Positions 2,057-33,608 of a stretch of 36,661 nt of DNA are shown here, in pieces. This DNA is from Escherichia phage HK75. The stretch lies in the sequence record HM173637. The stretch is one strand, 5' to 3'. A model generated the notes under the pieces. That model ran no database searches. It had not been told where the DNA came from and saw only the letters and a list, made by a program, of their open reading frames with translations. Within the stretch, counting starts at the first letter, position 1. Each line of letters begins with the position of its first letter. The translations under genes and the position numbers were made by a program.

Positions 2057-3330
2057 TGGAAGAACCTAAATACACGATTGACCTGCGAACCAATAACGGC
2101 TGGTGGGCAAGGCTGCAGTCCTGGTTTGTCGGCGGGCGTTTAGTCACCCCAAATCAGGGCTCACAGACGGGGCCTGTTTCGGCCCACGGACACCTGGGCG
2201 ATTCATCCATTAACGATGAACGGATACTGCAAATTTCGACTGTGTGGCGCTGCGTGAGCCTGATTTCAACGCTCACGGCATGCTTACCGCTTGATGTCTT
2301 CGAAACAGACCAGAATGACAACCGTAAAAAAGTGGATTTGAGCAATCCACTGGCGCGACTGCTGCGCTACTCACCGAATCAGTACATGACCGCCCAAGAA
2401 TTCAGGGAGGCCATGACGATGCAGCTCTGTTTCTACGGTAACGCATATGCACTTGTGGACCGCAACAGCGCAGGTGACGTGATCAGCCTACTCCCGCTTC
2501 AGTCTGCCAATATGGATGTGAAACTCGTCGGAAAAAAAGTGGTTTATCGCTATCAACGCGACAGCGAATACGCCGACTTTTCGCAGAAAGAGATTTTTCA
2601 CCTTAAAGGCTTCGGATTCACCGGGCTTGTAGGCCTGTCACCCATTGCTTTTGCCTGTAAATCGGCAGGTGTGGCAGTTGCGATGGAGGACCAGCAGCGA
2701 GATTTCTTTGCCAACGGCGCCAAGTCTCCGCAAATCCTCTCAACTGGCGAAAAAGTGCTAACTGAACAGCAGCGCTCCCAGGTCGAAGAGAACTTCAAAG
2801 AGATCGCCGGCGGCCCGGTAAAAAAACGCCTCTGGATTCTGGAAGCGGGTTTTTCTACATCGGCAATTGGCGTAACTCCGCAGGATGCCGAAATGATGGC
2901 GTCCCGAAAATTTCAGGTAAGTGAACTGGCGCGATTCTTTGGCGTACCGCCTCACCTTGTCGGCGACGTCGAGAAATCAACGAGCTGGGGATCGGGCATC
3001 GAGCAGCAGAATCTCGGCTTCCTGCAGTACACCCTGCAGCCCTATATCTCCAGGTGGGAAAACAGCATTCAGCGGTGGCTTATTCCTGCTAAGGATGTTG
3101 GCCGCATTCATGCTGAGCACAACCTCGACGGCCTGCTGAGGGGCGATTCGGCATCCCGCGCTGCCTTTATGAAGGCAATGGGAGAGGCAGGGCTACGCAC
3201 CATCAACGAGATGCGACGAACGGACAACCTCCCGCCATTGCCGGGTGGCGATGTGGCAATGCGCCAGTCGCAATACGTGCCGATCACCGATTTAGGAACC
3301 AACAAAGAGCCCCGTAATAACGGGGCTTAA
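2053..3330 (+). CDS. Portal protein (HK97 family)
   Basis: 425-aa ORF between terminase and prohead protease; GTG at 2053 or ATG at 2056 overlaps the TerL stop. Confidence 0.8.
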   Translation: MMEEPKYTIDLRTNNGWWARLQSWFVGGRLVTPNQGSQTGPVSAHGHLGDSSINDERILQISTVWRCVSLISTLTACLPLDVFETDQNDNRKKVDLSNPLARLLRYSPNQYMTAQEFREAMTMQLCFYGNAYALVDRNSAGDVISLLPLQSANMDVKLVGKKVVYRYQRDSEYADFSQKEIFHLKGFGFTGLVGLSPIAFACKSAGVAVAMEDQQRDFFANGAKSPQILSTGEKVLTEQQRSQVEENFKEIAGGPVKKRLWILEAGFSTSAIGVTPQDAEMMASRKFQVSELARFFGVPPHLVGDVEKSTSWGSGIEQQNLGFLQYTLQPYISRWENSIQRWLIPAKDVGRIHAEHNLDGLLRGDSASRAAFMKAMGEAGLRTINEMRRTDNLPPLPGGDVAMRQSQYVPITDLGTNKEPRNNGA

Positions 3331-3335
3331 TTTTT

Positions 3336-4025
3336 ATGGGGGCCGTAATGCCTGAAATCGTAAAAACGCTGTCCTTCGACGAGACAGAAATCAAATTCAC
3401 CGGTGACGGTAAACAGGGGATTTTTGAAGGCTACGCCTCTGTTTTTAATAACACCGATTCCGATGGCGACATCATTCTGCCCGGGGCGTTTAAAAACGCG
3501 CTGGCGAACCAGACCCGAAAAGTGGCGATGTTTTTTAACCACAGGACGTGGGAACTGCCGGTTGGCAAATGGGACAGCCTGGCTGAAGACGAAAAAGGCC
3601 TGTATGTGCGCGGTCAACTTACCCCAGGACACAGCGGCGCCGCTGACCTGAAAGCGGCAATGCAGCACGGTACGGTTGAAGGTATGTCGGTTGGCTTTTC
3701 CGTTTCGAAAGACGATTACACCATCATTCCAACAGGCCGCATTTTTAAGAATATCCAGGCTCTGCGCGAAATCAGCGTCTGCACTTTCCCCGCCAACGAA
3801 CAGGCTGGCATCGCAGCCATGAAAAGTGTCGATGGTATTGAAACGATTCGTGATGTGGAGAACTGGCTGAGGGATTCAGTCGGCCTCACCAAATCACAGG
3901 CAGTTGGGCTAATTGCCCGGTTTAAGTCAGCGATTCGGAGCGAGTCCGAGGGCGACGGAAACGAAGCACAAATAAACGCTCTGCTTCAGAGCATCAAATC
4001 TTTCCCTTCTAACTTAGGTAAATAA
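3336..4025 (+). CDS. Prohead maturation protease (HK97 family)
   Basis: 229-aa ORF between portal and major capsid genes, canonical HK97 order. Confidence 0.7.
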   Translation: MGAVMPEIVKTLSFDETEIKFTGDGKQGIFEGYASVFNNTDSDGDIILPGAFKNALANQTRKVAMFFNHRTWELPVGKWDSLAEDEKGLYVRGQLTPGHSGAADLKAAMQHGTVEGMSVGFSVSKDDYTIIPTGRIFKNIQALREISVCTFPANEQAGIAAMKSVDGIETIRDVENWLRDSVGLTKSQAVGLIARFKSAIRSESEGDGNEAQINALLQSIKSFPSNLGK

Positions 4026-6732: not shown

Positions 6733-7437
6733 ATGTCTGCACTTTATGAAAAATCGCAGCTGACGAAGATCCTTATTTCCTCCCTGCCGTCCACCAAAGA
6801 AACGATGGATTCCGCCACCTTTCTCGATCTGAGTTGCACCATCAAAGAAATTCAGTTCACTGGTGGCCAGAAGCAGGATATCGACGTAACAACACTTTGC
6901 TCTACCGAGCAGGAGAACATCAACGGCCTGCCTTCTCCGTCAGAAATCTCTCTGTCCGGCAACTTCTACAATAATCCAGCGCAGGACGCCTTGCGTGATG
7001 CGTATGACAACGACACCACTTACGGCTTCCAGATCATCTTCCCGTCAGGTAATGGTTTTAAGTTCCTGGCCGAAGTTCGCCAGCATACCTGGTCATCTGG
7101 TACCAATGGTGTTGTGGCAGCTACATTCTCACTGCGCCTTAAAGGCAAGCCTGTCCCGATTGACTCTGTACTTAAACTGACCACTGATCTTCCTTCCTCA
7201 CTGTCTGTAGCGGTGGGGGCTGCGATCAGCATGGCTGTAGTAGCTGCCGGTGGTAAGCCTCCGTATGCCTACACCTGGAAGAAGGCAGGTAGCACCGTCA
7301 GCGGGCAGACATCCGATACCTTTAATAAAGCCACCGCAGTTTCAGGTGATGCAGGTGATTACACCTGTGTGGTTACGGATTCTTCTTCTCCGGTCAAAAC
7401 GGTTACCTCAGCTGCCTGCACCCTTACTATCAGTTAA
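6733..7437 (+). CDS. Major tail protein with C-terminal Ig-like domain (lambda V-like)
   Basis: 234 aa; Ser/Thr/Val-rich C-terminal segment resembling a Big_2 Ig-like domain; precedes G/T chaperone genes. Confidence 0.7.
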   Translation: MSALYEKSQLTKILISSLPSTKETMDSATFLDLSCTIKEIQFTGGQKQDIDVTTLCSTEQENINGLPSPSEISLSGNFYNNPAQDALRDAYDNDTTYGFQIIFPSGNGFKFLAEVRQHTWSSGTNGVVAATFSLRLKGKPVPIDSVLKLTTDLPSSLSVAVGAAISMAVVAAGGKPPYAYTWKKAGSTVSGQTSDTFNKATAVSGDAGDYTCVVTDSSSPVKTVTSAACTLTIS

Positions 7438-7471
7438 TGGAGATGCCGGGTTGTCCCGGCATGGATAAGCG

Positions 7472-7858
7472 ATGTCGCAAACTTTAAAACAATTAGCCAT
7501 GGCGAAAATGGCTGGCTTTCGCCATAAGACGGTCGTTGTCCCTGAGTGGGAAGGTGTCAAAGTGGTTCTCCGTGAGCCGTCAGGTGAAGCCTGGCTGCGC
7601 TGGCAGGAGGTGGTGAAAGGGGGGGCCGACGATGAAAATGTGTCGGTATCGGAAAAGGCGCACCGTAATCTTTGCGCTGACGTGGTGCTCTTCATTGACG
7701 TTCTGTGTGACACCGATAAGCAACCGGTATTCAGCGTAGACGAAGAAGAGCAGGTGCGTGAAATCTACGGGCCCGTGCACTCACGTCTGCTCAAACAGGC
7801 GCTTGACCTGATCAACAATGCGGACGAAGCGCGGGAAAAGTCTCAACCCCCGGCGTAA
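7472..7858 (+). CDS. Tail assembly chaperone (lambda G-like)
   Basis: 128-aa ORF between major tail and tape measure genes; ends next to a slippery GGGAAAAG run. Confidence 0.6.
   Translation: MSQTLKQLAMAKMAGFRHKTVVVPEWEGVKVVLREPSGEAWLRWQEVVKGGADDENVSVSEKAHRNLCADVVLFIDVLCDTDKQPVFSVDEEEQVREIYGPVHSRLLKQALDLINNADEAREKSQPPA
7833..7840 (+). other. Candidate -1 programmed frameshift site (G to G-T fusion)
   Basis: cGGGAAAAG at the 3' end of the G-like ORF; the downstream ORF is open in the -1 frame from at least 7831. Confidence 0.45.
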
Positions 7859-7866
7859 AGTTTCTG

Positions 7867-8145
7867 ATGTCGCTTGCGCTCCGGATGGGGCGCACGCTCT
7901 CAGAGCTTCGGCAGAATATGACGGCAAGCGAGCTTCTGATGTGGATTGAGTACGACAGGCAAAGCCCGGTTGGCGATATTCGCGGTGATATCCATGCAGC
8001 GCAGATTGTCTCTGCCATCTACGGCTCGCAGGGGGCAAAAGTACCGCTGGACGATGCGATCCTGCGCTGGGGTGGTGATGAGCAATCAGAACCGAAGGAC
8101 CCGTTTGCAGGGCTTGAGGCGGCACTTACAGCTGCGACACAATAA
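7867..8145 (+). CDS. Tail assembly chaperone T-segment, probably expressed only as G-T frameshift fusion
   Basis: 92-aa ORF in the -1 frame relative to G, no convincing own RBS, conserved G/T arrangement of tailed phages. Confidence 0.5.
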   Translation: MSLALRMGRTLSELRQNMTASELLMWIEYDRQSPVGDIRGDIHAAQIVSAIYGSQGAKVPLDDAILRWGGDEQSEPKDPFAGLEAALTAATQ

Positions 8146-8202
8146 TTGCTTCACATGCCTTCAATGTAGCGATACGCTCTTTCCTTAAGTAAAGGAGGCG
8201 TT

Positions 8203-8391
8203 ATGGAACCACTGGTAGTAGTGTTTGGAATATTCGGCTGGCTGATAAATCTAATTGTGATTTTTTATTTATTACGGTTTAGCACAAGGGCAAATGAACA
8301 AGTTGAAGCCCTTAAAGAGATAAATAAAAAGCAAGATGCGCAAATAGATTTATTAATACAAGTCGCTCACCAAAGAAAAGACAGTTTATAA
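8203..8391 (+). CDS. Small single-pass membrane protein (moron A), unknown function
   Basis: 62 aa; AAGGAGG RBS at 8192-8198; N-terminal hydrophobic helix then charged tail with RFSTRANEQVEALKEI motif; AT-rich; own terminator. Confidence 0.5.
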   Translation: MEPLVVVFGIFGWLINLIVIFYLLRFSTRANEQVEALKEINKKQDAQIDLLIQVAHQRKDSL

Positions 8392-8397
8392 CTCACG

Positions 8398-8422
8398 ACC
8401 CGCTATCAAGCGGGTTTTTTTT
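8398..8422 (+). terminator. Intrinsic terminator after moron A
   Basis: ACCCGC-tatcaa-GCGGGT followed by TTTTTTTT. Confidence 0.6.
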
Positions 8423-8434
8423 ATGGGTGAAAAT

Positions 8435-11400
8435 ATGGCTACGTTGCGCGAACTGATCATCAAAATATCTGCAAACTCTCAGTCATTCCAGTCTGAAATT
8501 TCTCGTGCTTCAAGAATGGGGAATGACTATTACCGGGTAATGCAGACTGGAGGACGCCAATCGGCCGCAGCTTCGCGTGAAACTCAGCGTGCCTTGGCTG
8601 AGGTAACTAGTCAAATAAACACCGCGAAGGCCTCAGCACTGGGAATGGCTGGTGCATTTGCTGGAGCATTTGCGACTGGTCATCTTATATCGCTGGCCGA
8701 TGAATGGAGCTCTGTTAATGCCAGGCTAAAGCAGGCTTCCCAGTCGTCAGATGATTTCACGGAGTCCCAGCGGGCGCTGATGGATATTAGCCAGCGAACC
8801 GGAACCGCCTTCTCTGATAATGCGAGTCTTTTTGCGCGTTCAGCCGCTTCTATGCGTGAATATGGCTACAGTTCAGAAGAGGTTCTGAAGGTAACCGAGG
8901 CTATATCAACAGGGCTTAAGCTGTCAGGCGCAAGCGCGTCTGAAGCGAGTTCGGTAATCACGCAGTTCAGCCAGGCTCTGGCGCAGGGTGTTCTTCGAGG
9001 CGAGGAATTTAACTCCGTCAACGAAAACGGTGATCGAGTTATCCGTGCTCTTGCCGCAGGGATGGGTGTAGCTCGTAAAGATCTGAAGGCAATGGCCGAT
9101 CAGGGGATGCTAACCGCAGATAAAGTTGTCCCGGCCCTGATAAGTCAACTTGGCACTATGCGTGGTGAATTTGAGGCAATGCCGCAGACCGTTTCTGCTG
9201 CCACGACGAAAGTCGAAAATGCTTTCATGGCATGGGTAGGTGGCGCTAATGAAGCCACTGGTGCGACAAGTACTCTTGTTGCCGTATTGAATACGGTTTC
9301 TGACAATATAGACACTGTGGCTACGGCTGCCGGAGCTTTGGCTGCGATAGGTGGAGCTCGCTATCTTGGAGGGATGTTTGGCGATCTTGGGAACCAGACG
9401 GCGCAATTAATAGATGCCAGAAAGAACGAAATTGCGCTCGCAGCTGCAAGGGCTGAATCTGCTACCCAATCACAACGCAAGGCCGCCGCCGATGCTATTG
9501 CTGCTGAGCGAGCTTACCAGCTTGCTCAGTCAGAACTTGTGCTGGCAAAGAATACTAATGCTGAGGCTACTGCCACTCAAAATGCCATATCCAAGCGCCG
9601 GGCAATGATTACAGCAAATGCGGCACTGGTACAGTCAAACAGAGCCGTTGCAGCCTCTCAGCAGGCACTTAACTCTGCAACATCAGTGCTGGGGCTTGTA
9701 AAAACTGGCGCTACGGGTCTTTTGTCGTTAGTTGGTGGTTTGCCAGGAATTTTAATGTTGGGTGCTGGGGCGTGGTACACGATGTATCAACGCCAAGAAC
9801 AAGCCAGGGAATCTGCAATCCAATATGCGGACACAATCGAGCAGGTACGAGATAATCTGAAATCAATGTCTCAGACGCAGATATCCGCCAACCTTGGACA
9901 GGCGAATATTTCACTGGATGCTCAGAATAGTGCGATTGAACAGCAGAAGCAGAAAGTTGCTGAATTATCAAATCAACTTTATAACGCAAAATTAGCAGCC
10001 AATTCTGCTTCAGAGGGGACATGGCTGTATAACGATGCGGTTGAGAAAGCCGCAGACTTTGCTTCAGAACTTGCGGTTGAAGAAGGCCGACTTGAGCAAA
10101 TGCTCAATAAAAGAAAGCAAACACAACAGTTAATAAACGACATAACTGATCAGGCTATAAATAAAACAGTAGAAATGGCTGGCGCCGTAAGTTCTCTTAC
10201 AGAGATGTATGACCGGCTGAACAAGGTTTCCAGACAGTCTACAGCAGTGTCCCCACCAAAATATGCAGGACCTGTACTTCCTGCGCTTGATAATAAGCAA
10301 CAACAAGCTATTGAGAAAGCACAGCGACAGCTTGAGCTATCTGGCCTTCAGGGTTTGGATAAGGCTCGAAAGCAGGCAGAATTCGATGCATCTGATCTGA
10401 ACCTTCCAGCTGGTTGGCGTGAGAAATATGTCAGCATGGAAGTTGAGTCTGCCAGGCAATTACAAGCAATTCGTAACTCAAGCCGCCATAAGGGTGGAAA
10501 ATCCGAGGCGGAAAAAACAGCTGATACCTATGACAAGCTGATCAAGCAGCAAAAAGAGCAGATCGCTCTGCAAGGGCAGAATACCGAGCTGGCAAAGGTT
10601 AAATATCAGGTAAGCCAGGGTGAGCTTTCTACGCTAAGTCAGGCCCAGAAAGCCGAAGTTATGCGTAATGCTGCTCTCATCGATCAGGTTAAATTGCGTG
10701 AGCAACTGCGAAATTACGAAGCCAACCTTGCTGACAGTAACGACAGCGCCCGCGCAGCCAATGAAGCGCAACTGCTGGGCTACGGGCAGGGAACCAGGTT
10801 CCGTGAAAGACTTCAGGAGCAGTTCAATCTGCGTAAGGAGTTTGAGCAGAAGAATACCGATCTTCTCCGCCAGCGTCAGGCTGGTGAAATCGACGAGACG
10901 TTCTATCAGCAGGGGCTGGCACTTAATAAGCGCTACCTCGAAGAGCGCCTGCGCGACCAGGAGGGATATTACGCAGCTTCTGATGCGCAGCGTGACGACT
11001 GGATGACGGGACTGTCTGAGGGTTATGCGAACTGGGTGGATGAAGCGACAGATTACTCCTCCATGGCAGCTGACGGGATGAAGCAGGCAATGGGTGGGGC
11101 GGTAACTTCGATTACTGACATGCTCAATGGTAACGTCGACAGCTGGAAGGACTGGGGTGTCAGCGTACTGAAGATCATCCAGAATGTTCTGGTCAATATG
11201 GCTGTTGCTAACGGCGTCAGTTCAATTGGTTCTCTCTTCAGCTTTGGCGCATCTTCCGCCGCTGCCGCCAGTAGCGGTACTGCAATTCAGAACGCTGGCG
11301 CGAACTTCACCTTTAACGCGAAGGGTAATGTTTACGACTCTCCGTCCCTGAGCGCATACAGCAATGGCGTGTTTCAGACCCCTCAGCTTTTTGCTTTTGC

Positions 11401-11701
11401 CAAAGGAGCGGGTGTGTTTGCAGAGGCTGGACCTGAAGCCATTATGCCGCTTACCCGTGCTGCTGATGGTTCGCTTGGCGTTCGGGCTGTTGGCACTGGT
11501 GGTGGTCAGGCTGTATCTTCGGCTCCACAGGTTTACATCACCATCGATGGCAACGGAAATACTTCCACGCAGACTTCACCCGGCCTTGAGCAATTTGGTG
11601 CTGATGTCGGTAAATATATTGATCAGCGATATAAGCAGAACATCATGCGAGATATTCGGCCTGGCGGTGACATCTGGAACGCAATGAAAGGAACCCGATA
11701 A
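8435..11701 (+). CDS. H: Tail tape measure protein
   Basis: About 1090 aa, Ala/Gln-rich coiled-coil character, between the chaperone genes and M; alternative in-frame ATG at 8423. Confidence 0.85.
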   Translation: MATLRELIIKISANSQSFQSEISRASRMGNDYYRVMQTGGRQSAAASRETQRALAEVTSQINTAKASALGMAGAFAGAFATGHLISLADEWSSVNARLKQASQSSDDFTESQRALMDISQRTGTAFSDNASLFARSAASMREYGYSSEEVLKVTEAISTGLKLSGASASEASSVITQFSQALAQGVLRGEEFNSVNENGDRVIRALAAGMGVARKDLKAMADQGMLTADKVVPALISQLGTMRGEFEAMPQTVSAATTKVENAFMAWVGGANEATGATSTLVAVLNTVSDNIDTVATAAGALAAIGGARYLGGMFGDLGNQTAQLIDARKNEIALAAARAESATQSQRKAAADAIAAERAYQLAQSELVLAKNTNAEATATQNAISKRRAMITANAALVQSNRAVAASQQALNSATSVLGLVKTGATGLLSLVGGLPGILMLGAGAWYTMYQRQEQARESAIQYADTIEQVRDNLKSMSQTQISANLGQANISLDAQNSAIEQQKQKVAELSNQLYNAKLAANSASEGTWLYNDAVEKAADFASELAVEEGRLEQMLNKRKQTQQLINDITDQAINKTVEMAGAVSSLTEMYDRLNKVSRQSTAVSPPKYAGPVLPALDNKQQQAIEKAQRQLELSGLQGLDKARKQAEFDASDLNLPAGWREKYVSMEVESARQLQAIRNSSRHKGGKSEAEKTADTYDKLIKQQKEQIALQGQNTELAKVKYQVSQGELSTLSQAQKAEVMRNAALIDQVKLREQLRNYEANLADSNDSARAANEAQLLGYGQGTRFRERLQEQFNLRKEFEQKNTDLLRQRQAGEIDETFYQQGLALNKRYLEERLRDQEGYYAASDAQRDDWMTGLSEGYANWVDEATDYSSMAADGMKQAMGGAVTSITDMLNGNVDSWKDWGVSVLKIIQNVLVNMAVANGVSSIGSLFSFGASSAAAASSGTAIQNAGANFTFNAKGNVYDSPSLSAYSNGVFQTPQLFAFAKGAGVFAEAGPEAIMPLTRAADGSLGVRAVGTGGGQAVSSAPQVYITIDGNGNTSTQTSPGLEQFGADVGKYIDQRYKQNIMRDIRPGGDIWNAMKGTR

Positions 11702-13781: not shown

Positions 13782-13796
13782 GAGCGTAAATTAACA

Positions 13797-13820
13797 AACC
13801 ACCTACGGGTGGTTTTTTTT
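13797..13820 (+). terminator. Intrinsic terminator after moron B
   Basis: AACCACC-tacg-GGTGGTT followed by TTTTTT. Confidence 0.6.
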
Positions 13821-13831
13821 ATGGGGGCAGC

Positions 13832-14440
13832 ATGCAAGAGGTAATGACAAGAATTGAGCTAAGTGGCGTGCTAGCTAAGACATATGGAAGGGTTCATCAC
13901 CGTCTGGTTCGCACTACTGCTGAAGCCATTAATGCACTCGCGAAAACCATCAATGGATTCGAGAAATTCTTAAACACAAGCAAGGCCCGAGGGCTGACGT
14001 ATGCCGTTTATAGAGATAAAAAGAATATTGGCGTTGATGATCTCGGCTTTCCCGTCACCGGCGAAGTGATCCGGATTGTCCCTGTAGTAATAGGGAGTAA
14101 AAAGGCTGGTCTTTTGCAGACGATCTTGGGGGCTGTGCTTATTACTGCTGCTGTGTTGACTGGACCAGGCGGTATTGGCGCTGCTTTCGCTGCTGGTGGA
14201 TTGACGGGGTTTGCTGCTGCCACTGGTGCCTCGTTGGTCCTCGGTGGGGTTATTCAGCTGCTTTCACCGCAGCCATCAGGCATAGCCAGTAAACAAAGCG
14301 CAGATAACCGTGCATCGTATGCGTTTGGCGGGGTAACCAACACTGCAGCGCAAGGCTACCCGGTGCCTCTGCTTTATGGTAAGCGTCGAATCGGCGGAGC
14401 GATTATTTCTGCCGGAATTTATGTCGAAGATCAGCAGTAG
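13832..14440 (+). CDS. I: Tail assembly protein I
   Basis: 202 aa with Gly/Ala-rich hydrophobic C-terminal half, between K and J as in lambda. Confidence 0.7.
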   Translation: MQEVMTRIELSGVLAKTYGRVHHRLVRTTAEAINALAKTINGFEKFLNTSKARGLTYAVYRDKKNIGVDDLGFPVTGEVIRIVPVVIGSKKAGLLQTILGAVLITAAVLTGPGGIGAAFAAGGLTGFAAATGASLVLGGVIQLLSPQPSGIASKQSADNRASYAFGGVTNTAAQGYPVPLLYGKRRIGGAIISAGIYVEDQQ

Positions 14441-14459
14441 ATAACTAACCTTTTTTCTG

Positions 14460-14481
14460 GCCACCTTCGGGTGGCTTTTTT
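14460..14481 (+). terminator. Hairpin plus T-run between I and J
   Basis: GCCACC-ttcg-GGTGGC followed by TTTTTT. Confidence 0.5.
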
Positions 14482-14492
14482 ATGGGCGCAAT

Positions 14493-17400
14493 ATGGCTAC
14501 AGATAAAGTGTTAAAAGGCCGCAAGGGCGGCAGCTCAAGTTCCCGAACCCCTACCGAACAGCCTGATGATCTGCAATCTGTAGCGAAGGCAAAGATCCTC
14601 GTTGCGCTTGGGGAAGGGGAGTTTGCTGGACAGCTCACCGGGAAGGATATCTACCTGGACGGAACAGCGCTGGAGAATGCTGACGGCTCCCAAAACTTCA
14701 GCGGGGTAACGTGGGAGTTTCGCGCGGGAACGCAGGCGCAAAAATATATTCAGGGTATTCCCGGTACCGAAAACGAGATCAGCGTAGGAACTGAGGTATC
14801 AAGTGCCACAGCCTGGACGCGCACGTTTACCAATACGCAGCTTTCAGCAGTTCGCCTGCGTCTTAAATGGCCCTCGCTTTTCAAACAGGAAGACGACGGC
14901 GATCTGGTGGGTTACTCGGTCAATTATGCGATTGACCTGCAGACGGACGGCGGCACATGGCAGACGGTACTCAATACCAGCGTGACCGGAAAAACGACGT
15001 CTGGTTATGAGCGCAGCCACCGCATCGATTTACCGCAGGCTGGCAGCACCTGGACAATCCGCCTGCGTAAGATTACCTCTGACGCCAACAGCGCGAAGAT
15101 CGGCGACACGATGACGCTGCAGAGCTTCACTGAGGTTATTGACGCCAAGTTACGATATCCAAACACAGCGTTACTCTACATCGAATTCGATTCAAGCCAG
15201 TTTAACGGCTCTATCCCGCAGATCTCCTGCGAGCCCCGCGGCCGTGTTATCCGCGTTCCTGATACCTACGACCCTGAAACCCGCACTTATAGCGGTACAT
15301 GGACCGGTGCGTTTAAGTGGGCATGGACGGATAACCCTGCGTGGATTTTTTACGATCTGGTTGTTTCTGACCGGTTCGGCCTTGGGCACCGTTTGACCGC
15401 TGCGAATATTGATAAATGGACGCTTTATCAGGTTGCTCAGTATTGTGATCAGATGGTACCAGACGGCAAAGGGGGCAACGGTACAGAACCACGCTATACC
15501 TGCAACGTGTACATTCAGGACCGGAACGACGCCTACACAGTCCTACGTGATTTTGCCGCTATCTTCCGTGGCATGACCTACTGGGGCGGGGATCAGATTG
15601 TGGCCCTGGCTGACATGCCGCGCGATGTTGATTACAGCTATACGCGCGCTAACGTTGTTGGCGGTCGCTTCACCTATTCGAGCAGCACCACGAAAAGCCG
15701 CTACACCACAGCGCTGGTTTCATGGTCAGACCCGGGTAACGCTTATGCCGACGCGATGGAGCCGGTATTTGAGCAGGCGCTGGTGGCGCGGTACGGCTTC
15801 AATCAGCTGGAAATGACAGCCATCGGCTGCACCAGGCAGTCAGAGGCGAACCGAAAGGGGCGCTGGGGTATTCTCACCAATAACAAGGATCGCGTTGTTT
15901 CGTTTGATGTCGGGCTGGACGGAAACATTCCGCAGCCTGGCTACATCATCGCCGTGGCAGACGAGCTGCTTTCCGGAAAGGTTATGGGCGGCCGCATCAG
16001 CGCCGTTAACGGTCGCGTTATCAAACTTGACCGCGTAGCTGATGCAGCACCAGGTGATCGCCTTATTCTCAACCTTCCCTCCGGAGCGTCGCAGAGCAGG
16101 ACCATTCAGGCCGTGAACGGGGAATCAGTCACAGTCACCACGGCATACAGTGAGACGCCACAGGCCGAAGCTGTTTGGGTGGTTGAATCTGACGAGCTCT
16201 ACGCGCAGCAGTATCGAGTTGTCAGCGTTTCCGATAACGGGGATGGCACTTTCTCAATCACCGGCGCATGGCACGACCCGGATAAATATGCCCGTATCGA
16301 TACCGGAGCCATCATTGACCAGCGGCCGGTGAGCGTGATTCCGCCGGGTAACCAGTCGCCGCCTGCGAACATCGTGATCAGCTCGTTTTCCGTGGTTCAG
16401 CAAAATATCAGCGTCGAAACAATGCGCGTGAGCTGGGACCAGGCGCAGAACGCTATCGCCTATGAAGCGCAATGGCGCCGCAACGACGGGAACTGGGTTA
16501 ACGTGCCGCGCACCTCCACCACGTCATTCGACGTCCCGGGGATTTATGCCGGGCGCTACCTGGTGCGGGTGCGCGCAATCAATGCCGCAGAAATTTCATC
16601 CGGATGGGGCTATTCAGAAGAGAAAACGCTGACGGGTAAAGTGGGCAATCCACCTAAGCCGGTTGGCTTCATCGCTTCTGAAAATGTGGTTTTCGGCATC
16701 GAGCTGAACTGGGGATTCCCGGCGAATACCGACGACACGCTGAAGACGGAAATTCAGTACAGCCTGACCGGTACTGAAGACGATGCCATGCTGCTGGCCG
16801 ATGTGCCTTACCCGCAGCGCAAATATCAGCAGATGGGCCTTAAGGCTGGGCAGATTTTCTGGTACCGCGCGCAGCTGGTTGACCGCAGCGGTAACGAGTC
16901 AGGTTATACCGGCTGGGTTCGTGGGCAGGCCAGTATCGATGTTTCTGACATCACAGATGTGATCCTTGAAGACATCAAAGGGTCTGAGACGTTCAAAGAC
17001 CTGATCGAGAACGCTGTGGACAGCAATGAAAAAATTGCTGGCATGGCTGACGACATCAAACAGGCCAACGATGAACTTGAACTCCAGGCGCAGGAAATCG
17101 CAAAAAACGCGCAGGACATCGGGCAGGTTCAGACCAGCGTTAATGAGCTTTCTAGCACGGTCGGTGATGTGTCGTCTTCTCTCTCAGATCTTGAGCAGAC
17201 TGTTGCGACTGCTGATACCGCACTGGGCCAGCGAATCGACAGCATCAGCGTGTCTATGGACGGCATGACGGGCGGGGTGAAGAACTCTGCTATCGCAATT
17301 ATCCAGAACGGGCTGGCACAAGTGGCTACGCGTAAATCGTTGTCAGCTTCGGTCGCAGGGAACAGTGCGCAGCTGGATCGTATTGATGAGGTAATCGTTA

Positions 17401-25869: not shown

Positions 25870-26208
25870 TTATGACCACTTTTTGTTTGGGTTTCGTTGG
25901 TGAGCGTGATTAACAACTCTGTGCATTACATCCTCATATTTTTCATCTTCAATTTTTTCGACATCGCGAGGAAATGGTGTTGCTAATGCTTTGTCAACTT
26001 TGTCCATTGGGTCTTCATTAATCTTATATTCCGGACCGTCATCTATAGCATTAAATCCAGGTGTTACACCGTTTTCTAATGCATATGCCATTCTCTTTTC
26101 CCATCTCGCTATTCTCCTCCTGTCTTGAGATGTAAGGCATCTATCAGATACTTTTCTGTTTTGTCCGCGGTCAGGATTAACATAAATAGTCTTTTTCACC
26201 ATAAGCAT
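25870..26208 (-). CDS. Putative N-like antitermination protein
   Basis: First gene leftward of the repressor; basic Arg-rich segment SQDRRRIARWEKR near the N-terminus; ORF-track start at 26214 is TTG, first ATG at 26208. Confidence 0.3.
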   Translation of the reverse strand: MLMVKKTIYVNPDRGQNRKVSDRCLTSQDRRRIARWEKRMAYALENGVTPGFNAIDDGPEYKINEDPMDKVDKALATPFPRDVEKIEDEKYEDVMHRVVNHAHQRNPNKKWS

Positions 26209-26566
26209 ACTCAATAAGCACCGTACGGTAGTTTACTGTACAATTTTATTTTTTGGACTGCATGTATTTTGTTTCCTAATGGGTTTGAATCTTTGCAATA
26301 AATACTTCTATTTTTTCGAACGACTTCTATATCAAAAAGCTGCTTTGCTTTTTGTGACTAAAAGCAAAAAAGCCTTCTCGCTAATGAGCAGCATTGCCGT
26401 TCATCCTGAACCCGCCGCGCTCCCGACGCATGGTTTAAAGACGCGCCGTTCGTCTATGGGCTTATGATGTACCTAAAGTTCATTAATGTAAAGTACCAGT
26501 AGTACATTTTATGGGTATAAAAAGCTCACTACATCATAAGTTAGTGAACTTTAAGGAAATTTATTT

Positions 26567-32908: not shown

Positions 32909-33093
32909 ACGCCACAATTCAAACGATACCAGAGCTTCTTATCCAGACGCGAGGCAATCAGACCGAAGTGGCGAGGATGCTTTCCTGCGCAAGAGGAACA
33001 GTGCTCAAGTACAACCGAGACAGCAAAGGCGAGCGTCACGTAATAGTTAACGGCGTCCTGATGGTCAAACAGGGCAAAAGGGGAAGACGATGA
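32905..33093 (+). CDS. ninH: NinH-like small DNA-binding protein
   Basis: 62 aa, GNQTEVARMLSCARGTVLKY resembles recalled lambda NinH. Confidence 0.55.
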   Translation: MNATIQTIPELLIQTRGNQTEVARMLSCARGTVLKYNRDSKGERHVIVNGVLMVKQGKRGRR

Positions 33094-33608
33094 GCATAAG
33101 AGAGCTAAACCTCACCAAAGAACAGCACGATTGGCTGAATTGCTGGCTTGAACTGTGGGGCGCATGGGTTTATTCAGGTCGTCTGGAAAAGCGCATGAGC
33201 AGCGTAATAGCGAAGTTCATGGAGAGCGTAGAGCCGGGAAGAGTTATGACAAGGCCAATGTGCAATGATGATGATGGAATGTTGATTTCTCAGGTCGTCG
33301 ATTCCGTCATGTACATTGACAAGAAAGCCTTCGGCATCCTCCTCAGCTACTACGCTCATGGTTCATCTAAGCGAGCAATTGCATCCTACTATCACGCGAC
33401 TGCAAAGCCACGCAAGATGTGTGGACGTGGTGGCGAGGGATGGAGAAAACCTTCACTGGCAACCTGTAGAAACGAAATTGACGACATCCTGAAAGCGTCG
33501 TTATTTGTTTTGTACCAGCCAATGCAAAATGCTTTCAAAATGCGTAAACGTGTTGAGAAAGTTAAGCATGTTGCTGTTAAAAGCCTTGACATGCAATTAT
33601 CCATTTAG
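33090..33608 (+). CDS. Putative late-gene antiterminator (Q-like)
   Basis: 172 aa, last gene before a strong promoter-hairpin-T-run unit and the lysis cassette; several Cys; position-based call. Confidence 0.4.
   Translation: MSIRELNLTKEQHDWLNCWLELWGAWVYSGRLEKRMSSVIAKFMESVEPGRVMTRPMCNDDDGMLISQVVDSVMYIDKKAFGILLSYYAHGSSKRAIASYYHATAKPRKMCGRGGEGWRKPSLATCRNEIDDILKASLFVLYQPMQNAFKMRKRVEKVKHVAVKSLDMQLSI

What the first reader, a model, noticed from the sequence alone, without database searches (positions are those of the whole stretch)
8146..8422. Self-contained small membrane-protein cassette inserted between the tail chaperone and tape measure genes
A 62-aa ORF with a near-consensus RBS (AAGGAGG), one N-terminal transmembrane helix and a charged C-terminal tail sits in its own intergenic island, is visibly more AT-rich than the flanking tail genes, and is followed by a strong intrinsic terminator. 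Lambda has nothing between T and H. A terminator in the middle of an essential tail operon only makes sense if late transcription is antiterminated, so the cassette behaves like a lysogen-expressed moron. A small inner-membrane protein expressed from a prophage is the classic format of superinfection-exclusion or injection-blocking factors.
Basis: partly seen in the sequence, partly recalled or inferred. Interest (0 to 1): 0.8.

Follow-up and report, generated by a model that had tools for sequence, protein, structure and literature searches.

The report
HK97 gene 15 superinfection-exclusion moron
The small membrane-protein cassette is real, but it is the already published "gene 15 moron" of coliphage HK97, the element for which the word moron was coined, whose product, made from the prophage, blocks DNA injection by related phages.

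Summary
There is a 62-aa ORF at 8203-8391 (+) with an AAGGAGG ribosome-binding site and one N-terminal transmembrane helix. The 277-nt island has 37% G+C against about 55% in the flanks. A strong hairpin plus T8 terminator lies at 8397-8422. The island sits between the tail chaperone genes G/GT and the tape measure gene.

It is not new. The 1.8 kb around it is 100% identical to phage HK633 and 99.8% identical to HK97. The protein is HK97 Gp15 with one conservative change (M14L), and the GenBank record annotates Gp15 as "moron product". The literature describes this element as the first moron. It reports that gp15 is expressed from the prophage, sits in the inner membrane, and blocks genome injection by HK97 and HK75 in a way that depends on the incoming phage's tail. 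It also reports that gp15 resembles the enterobacterial YebO family; here it scores above the Pfam YebO cut-off.

The only weak point is the promoter: I found just an 8/12 sigma-70 candidate, which is no better than background.

Side observations:
- The same slot holds other AT-rich cassettes encoding envelope-targeted proteins in related phages.
- Terminator-like hairpins recur through the late operon.
- The window encodes a Q-type antiterminator.

The parts
7472..7858 (+). Tail assembly chaperone (lambda G / HK97 gp13 equivalent). This is the left neighbour, not part of the cassette.
   Evidence: Pfam Phage_TAC_1 1.6e-60; annotated gp13 in HK97.
7867..8145 (+). T-like part of the frameshifted chaperone (HK97 gp14, made by a -1 frameshift from gp13). 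Its stop codon at 8143-8145 is the left edge of the insertion.
   Evidence: Pfam Phage_tail_T 1.5e-20. HK97 annotation 'translated due to a -1 frameshift'. Similarity to SaltyDalty, LAU1 and AsXd-1 ends at window 8141.
8146..8202 (+). Leader of the cassette. The only sigma-70-like candidate is TTCACA (8150-8155), 17 nt, TACGCT (8173-8178), matching 8 of 12 positions. It is not better than background.
   Evidence: Strict scan finds no promoter. The relaxed scan finds the 8/12 site, and such sites occur 3.7 times per kb on this strand. In the EC2001 prophage allele, 3 of the 4 upstream changes fall in the spacer and both hexamers are intact.
8192..8198 (+). Ribosome-binding site AAGGAGG, 4 nt before the start codon.
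   Evidence: Read directly from the sequence.
8203..8391 (+). Gene 15: a 62-aa single-pass membrane protein of the YebO-like family. It is the HK97 Gp15 superinfection-exclusion protein, allele L14.
   Evidence: 61/62 identical to HK97 Gp15 and identical to the proteins of HK633, HK446, mEp234, HK544, HK106 and mEpX1. Pfam PF13974 YebO 38.7 bits against a cut-off of 27. phrog_5031 4e-29. Hydropathy. AF2 helix 2-61.
8397..8422 (+). Intrinsic terminator: 8-bp stem GACCCGCT/AGCGGGTT, loop ATCA, T8 run. It is also a mosaic breakpoint.
   Evidence: -13 kcal/mol, z -4.4. Annotated as a terminator in HK97 and HK633. In HK544, identity drops from 99% or more to 84.8% just after it. The SW-37 match starts at window 8410.
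8435..11701 (+). Tail length tape measure protein (HK97 gp16 / lambda H equivalent). This is the right neighbour, and published hybrid-phage work implicates this part of the incoming phage's tail in sensitivity to gp15.
   Evidence: Pfam TMP_3 2.6e-58, HK97_TLTM 5.4e-34, Tape_meas_lam_C. 99.5% aa identity to the HK97 tape measure protein. Literature.
33090..33608 (+). Q-family late antiterminator. It explains how late transcription passes the terminator at 8397-8422 and the others in the late operon.
   Evidence: Pfam Phage_antitermQ 1.3e-25; phrog_943 1.1e-92.

Best explanation
The cassette is the gene 15 moron of HK97-like phages. It is a horizontally acquired, AT-rich, one-gene unit inserted exactly between the stop codon of the tail chaperone gene T and the start region of the tape measure gene.

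Its product is a 62-aa protein with a very short N-terminus, one transmembrane helix (residues about 4-24) and a charged helical tail. I infer that the tail is cytoplasmic from R25 and R29 (the positive-inside rule).

In a lysogen the protein is made while the surrounding tail genes are silent, and the terminator keeps that transcription out of the tape measure gene. From the inner membrane it stops a superinfecting phage with an HK97-type tail from delivering its DNA into the cytoplasm. Adsorption is unaffected, and the block works independently of repressor immunity. During lytic growth, Q-modified RNA polymerase reads through the terminator, so the tail operon is not interrupted.

Shown here: the anatomy, identity with HK97 gene 15, absence of any gene at this junction in HK022, YebO-family membership, and the presence of Q.

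Taken from the literature on HK97: prophage expression, the exclusion phenotype and its dependence on the tail.

Inferred: the topology, that the M14L allele behaves the same, and the position of the promoter.
For: - Identity: window 7400-9200 is 100% identical to HK633 and 99.8% to HK97. The protein differs from HK97 Gp15 only by M14L. AF069529 annotates gene 15 as 'moron product' with a terminator at 8398-8422.
- Insertion: HK022 has a 20-nt gap and no gene between gp14 and gp16.
- Composition: G+C is 0.37 against about 0.55 in the flanks.
- Terminator: z = -4.4.
- Membrane helix.
- Family: YebO Pfam hit above the gathering score. It is 38% identical over 48 residues to K-12 YebO, with conserved R25, S27, R29, N31 and Q33 after the helix.
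- Q antiterminator at 33090-33608.
- Tape measure protein 99.5% identical to the HK97 protein.
- Literature: PMC3594210, PMC10883804, PMC12939059, PMC4465916.
- Klebsiella prophages carry a 77-aa homologue (47% identity, same phrog_5031) in the same chaperone|tape-measure slot.
Against: - No good sigma-70 promoter is visible upstream. The best site matches 8 of 12 positions, which is no better than background. Lysogen expression therefore rests on the published HK97 work, not on this sequence.
- The primary papers (Cumby 2012, Cumby 2015, Juhala 2000) are not held in the library. I read their results only through the authors' own commentary and later papers.
- The L14 allele has not been tested as such in anything I read.
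- gp15 is identical in HK544, whose tape measure 5' region is only 84.8% identical. So the gene is not tied to one tape measure allele.
- PADLOC has no model that matches it.
Confidence: 0.9

Rival explanations
1. The gene is mainly a late, lytic-cycle function. It is transcribed with the tail operon under Q antitermination and acts in the infected cell, for example to stop wasteful re-injection into already infected or lysing cells, or to help tape measure or tail handling at the membrane. Lysogen expression would then be marginal.
For: It lies inside the late operon in the same orientation. No convincing promoter of its own is visible. It must be co-transcribed with late genes because Q reads through. 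Homologues always sit directly before the tape measure gene, even in Klebsiella phages with a diverged tail module.
Against: [quoted passage not shown] HK022 and the LAU1, SW-37 and SaltyDalty relatives build tails without it. So it is dispensable for assembly.
Confidence: 0.06
2. It is a captured yebO gene that keeps the unknown host-physiology role of chromosomal YebO, a small envelope or stress-related membrane protein. It would benefit the lysogen in a way unrelated to phage exclusion.
For: Pfam YebO hit above the cut-off. PGAP names the prophage copies 'YebO family protein'. The helix and the R-S-R-N-Q motif are conserved with K-12 YebO.
Against: The C-terminal part is diverged and 32 residues shorter than YebO. 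PMC3594210 reports that deleting or overexpressing E. coli YebO has no effect on HK97, whereas gp15 excludes it.
Confidence: 0.03
3. The ORF is a chance reading frame in an AT-rich spacer, and the functional element is RNA or only the terminator.
For: It is short, at 62 codons. The Rfam search cannot exclude an undescribed RNA.
Against: It has a consensus ribosome-binding site. It matches Pfam and PHROG families at 1e-9 and 4e-29. It has 47%-identical protein homologues in Klebsiella phages, with the helix and motif conserved. No Rfam family matches: the best hit scores 14 bits against a gathering score of 160.
Confidence: 0.01

Closest known systems
HK97 gene 15 / Gp15 moron (Juhala et al. 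2000; Cumby et al. 2012, 2015)
   Same: Same gene, same coordinates, same flanks, same terminator. The protein matches at 61 of 62 residues, and there are 3 nucleotide differences in 1.8 kb.
   Different: L14 instead of M14, in the transmembrane helix. L14 is the commoner allele, shared with six other HK/mEp phages. The rest of the genome is a different mosaic: HK022-like early region with Nun, a different Q type, and no gp22/23 moron.
Enterobacterial YebO (E. coli K-12 b1825; Pfam PF13974)
   Same: A single N-terminal transmembrane helix followed by R-x-S-x-R-x-N-x-Q and a helical charged segment. 38% identity over 48 residues. Pfam score above the cut-off.
   Different: YebO is 95 aa with a longer N-terminus and an acidic C-terminal extension. 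It is chromosomal, next to mgrB. It is reported to have no effect on HK97 infection.
Ltp of Streptococcus phage TP-J34 and Sie2009 of Lactococcus phage Tuc2009
   Same: Prophage-expressed, membrane-anchored proteins that block DNA injection by siphophages. For Ltp, changes in the tape measure protein overcome the block.
   Different: Unrelated sequences. Ltp is a lipoprotein on the outer face of a Gram-positive membrane. gp15 is an integral single-pass protein of the Gram-negative inner membrane.
P22 SieA
   Same: An inner-membrane, prophage-encoded protein that blocks passage of DNA across the inner membrane.
   Different: Unrelated sequence. It acts on podovirus ejection proteins and is not located in a tail operon.

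Membership tests
HK97 gp15 superinfection-exclusion protein | Sequence orthology to HK97 Gp15 | tested here: met
   98.4% identity over all 62 residues; the only difference is M14L.
HK97 gp15 superinfection-exclusion protein | Single-pass membrane protein | tested here: met
   In silico only: hydropathy 2.5 over residues 3-24, followed by R25 and R29; AF2 gives a single helix. Localisation itself cannot be tested here.
HK97 gp15 superinfection-exclusion protein | Expressed from the repressed prophage; lysogen resists HK97 and HK75 at the DNA-entry step | not testable with these tools
   Reported for HK97 in PMC3594210. No expression or plating data exist for this sequence.
Moron (as described in PMC3594210, citing Juhala et al. 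2000) | Extra DNA between two genes that are adjacent in related phages | tested here: met
   In HK022, gp14 and gp16 are 20 nt apart with no gene between them. Similarity to relatives stops at the T stop codon and resumes at the terminator.
Moron (as described in PMC3594210, citing Juhala et al. 2000) | Base composition unlike the flanking genes | tested here: met
   G+C 0.372 against 0.577 and 0.516 in the flanks; lowest 0.7% of windows.
Moron (as described in PMC3594210, citing Juhala et al. 2000) | Own terminator | tested here: met
   Hairpin plus T8, z = -4.4. However, similar sites also occur at junctions without morons.
Moron (as described in PMC3594210, citing Juhala et al. 2000) | Own promoter | tested here: inconclusive
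   Only TTCACA-17-TACGCT, 8 of 12; sites this good occur 3.7 times per kb. Other cargos in the same slot have better 9-10/12 promoters.
Pfam PF13974 YebO-like | Score at or above the gathering threshold | tested here: met
   38.7 bits against 27, E = 1.2e-9, residues 14-59.
Catalogued anti-phage defence systems (PADLOC-DB 2.0) | Match to any PADLOC model | tested here: not met
   No hit at E <= 0.1. The library simply has no model for it.

The most novel reading that the evidence does not exclude
The chaperone|tape-measure junction of HK97-like tails may be a dedicated exchange slot. In relatives with 93-95% identical G/T genes, the slot holds unrelated AT-rich cargos, each encoding a predicted envelope-targeted protein: a signal-peptide protein in SaltyDalty and two different lipoproteins in LAU1 and SW-37. 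All three share a promoter (GTGACA-17-TAGGAT or TATTAT) that overlaps the T stop codon, and a hairpin-T8 terminator that abuts the tape measure start. If each cargo were an injection blocker matched to tape measure proteins, the slot would be a small, predictable source of new superinfection-exclusion proteins. The fact that gp15 is identical in phages with different tape measure alleles (HK544) would then help map what gp15 recognises.
Probability: 0.3. Interest if true: 0.4.

Novelty: already known. Interest (0 to 1): 0.1.

Why it matters
For this window it matters little. The element is the founding example of a phage moron, its product is an experimentally characterised superinfection-exclusion protein, and this copy differs by one conservative residue. 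The useful result is that a sequence-only reading recovered the published biology correctly, so the finding can be closed as known.

Three things remain open, all in the field rather than in this window:
- How gp15 stops DNA entry at the molecular level.
- Where its lysogenic promoter is.
- Whether the other cargos found in the same slot are also exclusion proteins.

Tried and rejected
- Strict promoter scan of 7000-9500: nothing found. A relaxed scan gave three 8/12 sites, no better than background.
- Reading the primary papers by DOI and PMC id (Cumby 2012): not held. I used the authors' commentary and later citing papers instead.
- NCBIfam: no model above cut-off. PADLOC: no match.
- Rfam on 7900-8700: only a meaningless 14-bit miRNA hit.
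- HK97 Q protein against the window by tblastn: no match. A different Q family member was then found by Pfam and PHROGs.
- I considered whether the terminator alone marks the cassette as foreign and rejected that idea. The same kind of hairpin stays at the I|J junction of this window, although the HK97 gp22/23 moron is absent there.
- From memory, the window length and mosaic fit phage HK75. I could not test this, because no record in the collection matches the whole window.

Full report
**The observation**

An ORF at 8203-8391 on the + strand encodes 62 residues. AAGGAGG lies at 8192-8198, four bases before the ATG. No ORF of 30 codons or more lies on the opposite strand within 8146-8422.

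Hydropathy averaged over 19 residues peaks at 2.5 for residues 3-24. These are followed by R25 and R29, and the remaining 38 residues carry 7 K+R and 6 D+E. AlphaFold2 without an alignment predicts one continuous helix, residues 2-61, with mean pLDDT 94.

G+C is 0.372 for 8146-8422 and 0.333 for the ORF. This compares with 0.577 for the upstream gene, 0.516 for the first kilobase of the downstream gene and 0.50 for the window. Only 0.7% of 277-nt windows are as AT-rich, and they cluster in two places, this one and 26011-26420.

The terminator is an 8-bp stem at 8397-8416 with a 4-nt loop and a run of eight T. Its folding energy is -13 kcal/mol, 4.4 standard deviations below shuffled sequence.

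The upstream genes match Pfam Phage_TAC_1 (1.6e-60) and Phage_tail_T (1.5e-20). The downstream 1088-aa protein matches three tape measure families.

**What it is**

Window 7400-9200 is 100% identical to phage HK633 and 99.8% identical to HK97, with the features at the same coordinates as in HK97. The HK97 record AF069529 annotates 8203-8391 as gene 15, "Gp15, moron product". It places a putative terminator at 8398-8422, with gp13/gp14 (a -1 frameshift pair) upstream and the tape measure gene H downstream.

The window protein differs from HK97 Gp15 only at residue 14, L instead of M. It is identical to the proteins of HK633, HK446, mEp234, HK544, HK106 and mEpX1. It matches phrog_5031 at 4e-29. 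It scores 38.7 bits on Pfam PF13974 (YebO-like), above the gathering score of 27. Against E. coli K-12 YebO it is 38% identical over 48 residues, and the conserved positions lie at the end of the helix and just after it: R25, S27, R29, N31, Q33.

**Evidence that it is an insertion**

HK022, which has the same gene order, has 20 nt and no gene between its gp14 and gp16. SaltyDalty, AsXd-1 and LAU1 match the G and T genes at 93-95% identity, and the match ends at window 8141, just before the T stop codon. Salmonella phage SW-37 matches from window 8410, inside the 3' arm of the terminator. In HK544, the G and T genes and the cassette are 99-100% identical to the window, but the first 760 nt of the tape measure gene are only 84.8% identical. 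The insertion therefore spans the T stop codon to the terminator, and the terminator is a recombination breakpoint.

**How it works**

I could not read the primary papers. The authors' commentary PMC3594210 states the following:
- The term moron was first used for the element containing HK97 gene 15, between the tail chaperone and tape measure genes.
[quoted passage not shown] - The effect is unrelated to repressor immunity.
[quoted passage not shown] - Deleting or overexpressing E. coli YebO has no effect on HK97.

[quoted passage not shown] A 2026 review describes the block as acting through the tape measure protein and PtsG.

The window's tape measure protein is 99.5% identical to that of HK97. 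So this phage carries both the exclusion gene and a tail of the type it excludes.

The inference that late transcription must be antiterminated is sound. The window encodes a Q-family antiterminator at 33090-33608 (Pfam PF06530 1.3e-25, phrog_943 1.1e-92), just upstream of the holin gene.

**The weak point**

No good promoter is visible. The strict scan finds none in 7000-9500. The best relaxed candidate is TTCACA (8150) - 17 nt - TACGCT (8173), matching 8 of 12 positions, and sites this good occur 3.7 times per kb on this strand. In a diverged prophage allele from E. coli EC2001, three of the four upstream substitutions fall in the spacer and both hexamers are unchanged. That is consistent with the candidate but proves nothing. 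Lysogen expression therefore rests on the published HK97 experiments.

**Distribution**

The cassette occurs in 6 of 5426 complete E. coli genomes. It is chromosomal in all six; in the two I inspected it sits in a prophage between T and the tape measure gene. PGAP names it "YebO family protein". Twenty Klebsiella phage records encode a 47%-identical homologue of 77 aa in the same PHROG. In the two inspected, it lies between a DUF4035 (T-like) gene and the tape measure gene, in a 35% G+C island with its own hairpin terminator.

**Side observations**

- The same slot holds different cargos in relatives: a 97-aa protein with a signal peptide in SaltyDalty, a 121-aa lipoprotein in LAU1 and a 137-aa lipoprotein (phrog_890) in SW-37. 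All are 32-39% G+C. All have GTGACA-17-TAGGAT or TATTAT overlapping the T stop codon, and all end in a hairpin plus T-run just before the tape measure start.
- Hairpin plus T-run plus ATGGGNG plus start codon recurs at 3307, 8397, 13796 and 14459. The H and J starts share a 24-25-nt motif, with two matches found and none expected by chance.
- The window lacks the HK97 gp22/gp23 moron at the I|J junction but keeps the terminator there.
- The other AT-rich island holds an ORF on the minus strand, 25870..26214. From memory it looks like the HK022 Nun exclusion protein. It lies in the part of the window that matches HK022, where the HK022 record annotates Nun.

**Verdict**

Interest is low.

Noticed in passing
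window 8146-8422; L004 3151-3556; L005 3151-3623; L006 292-790: The T|H junction is a cargo hot spot. Relatives with 93-95% identical G/T genes carry unrelated AT-rich (32-39% G+C) cassettes: a signal-peptide protein in SaltyDalty and lipoproteins in LAU1 and SW-37. All share a GTGACA-17-TAGGAT or TATTAT promoter that overlaps the T stop codon, and a hairpin-T-run terminator just before the tape measure start. HK022 has nothing there.
   Followed up: partly
window 3307-3350, 8397-8442, 13796-13836, 14459-14500: A recurrent junction unit in the late operon: G+C-rich hairpin, T-run, ATGGGNG, then the next gene's start codon. The H and J starts share TTTTTATGGG[T/C]G..AATATGGCTAC, with 2 matches found and 0 expected. 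This may be a shared translation-initiation or recombination boundary at the two HK97 moron sites.
   Followed up: partly
window 14434-14492: The window lacks the HK97 gp22/gp23 moron (HK97 14436-15107) between I and J but keeps the terminator hairpin that follows it in HK97. At that junction the terminator therefore belongs to the backbone rather than to the cargo.
   Followed up: partly
window 25870-26420 (-): This is the only other region as AT-rich as the cassette. It holds a 114-codon ORF ending ...NKKWS. From memory it looks like the HK022 Nun transcription-termination/exclusion protein, and it lies in the part of the window that matches HK022. It would be a second lysogen-expressed exclusion gene.
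   Followed up: no
window 8415-9183 versus L013 (HK544): A sharp mosaic breakpoint. HK544 is 99-100% identical through G, T and the gene 15 cassette, then only 84.8% identical in the first 760 nt of the tape measure gene. An identical gp15 is thus paired with a different tape measure allele.
   Followed up: partly
window 33090-33608: The late antiterminator is a Q-family protein (PF06530, phrog_943) that tblastn does not match to HK97 Q. The right arm of the window is HK022-like (96.6%), while the left 14.4 kb is HK97-like (98.8%). No record in the phage collection matches the whole window.
   Followed up: partly
L007 1598-3849 (Klebsiella phage ST147-VIM1phi7.2): An IS21-family element (transposase plus AAA ATPase) is inserted between the T-like gene and the YebO-like gene, in the same junction.
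   Followed up: no
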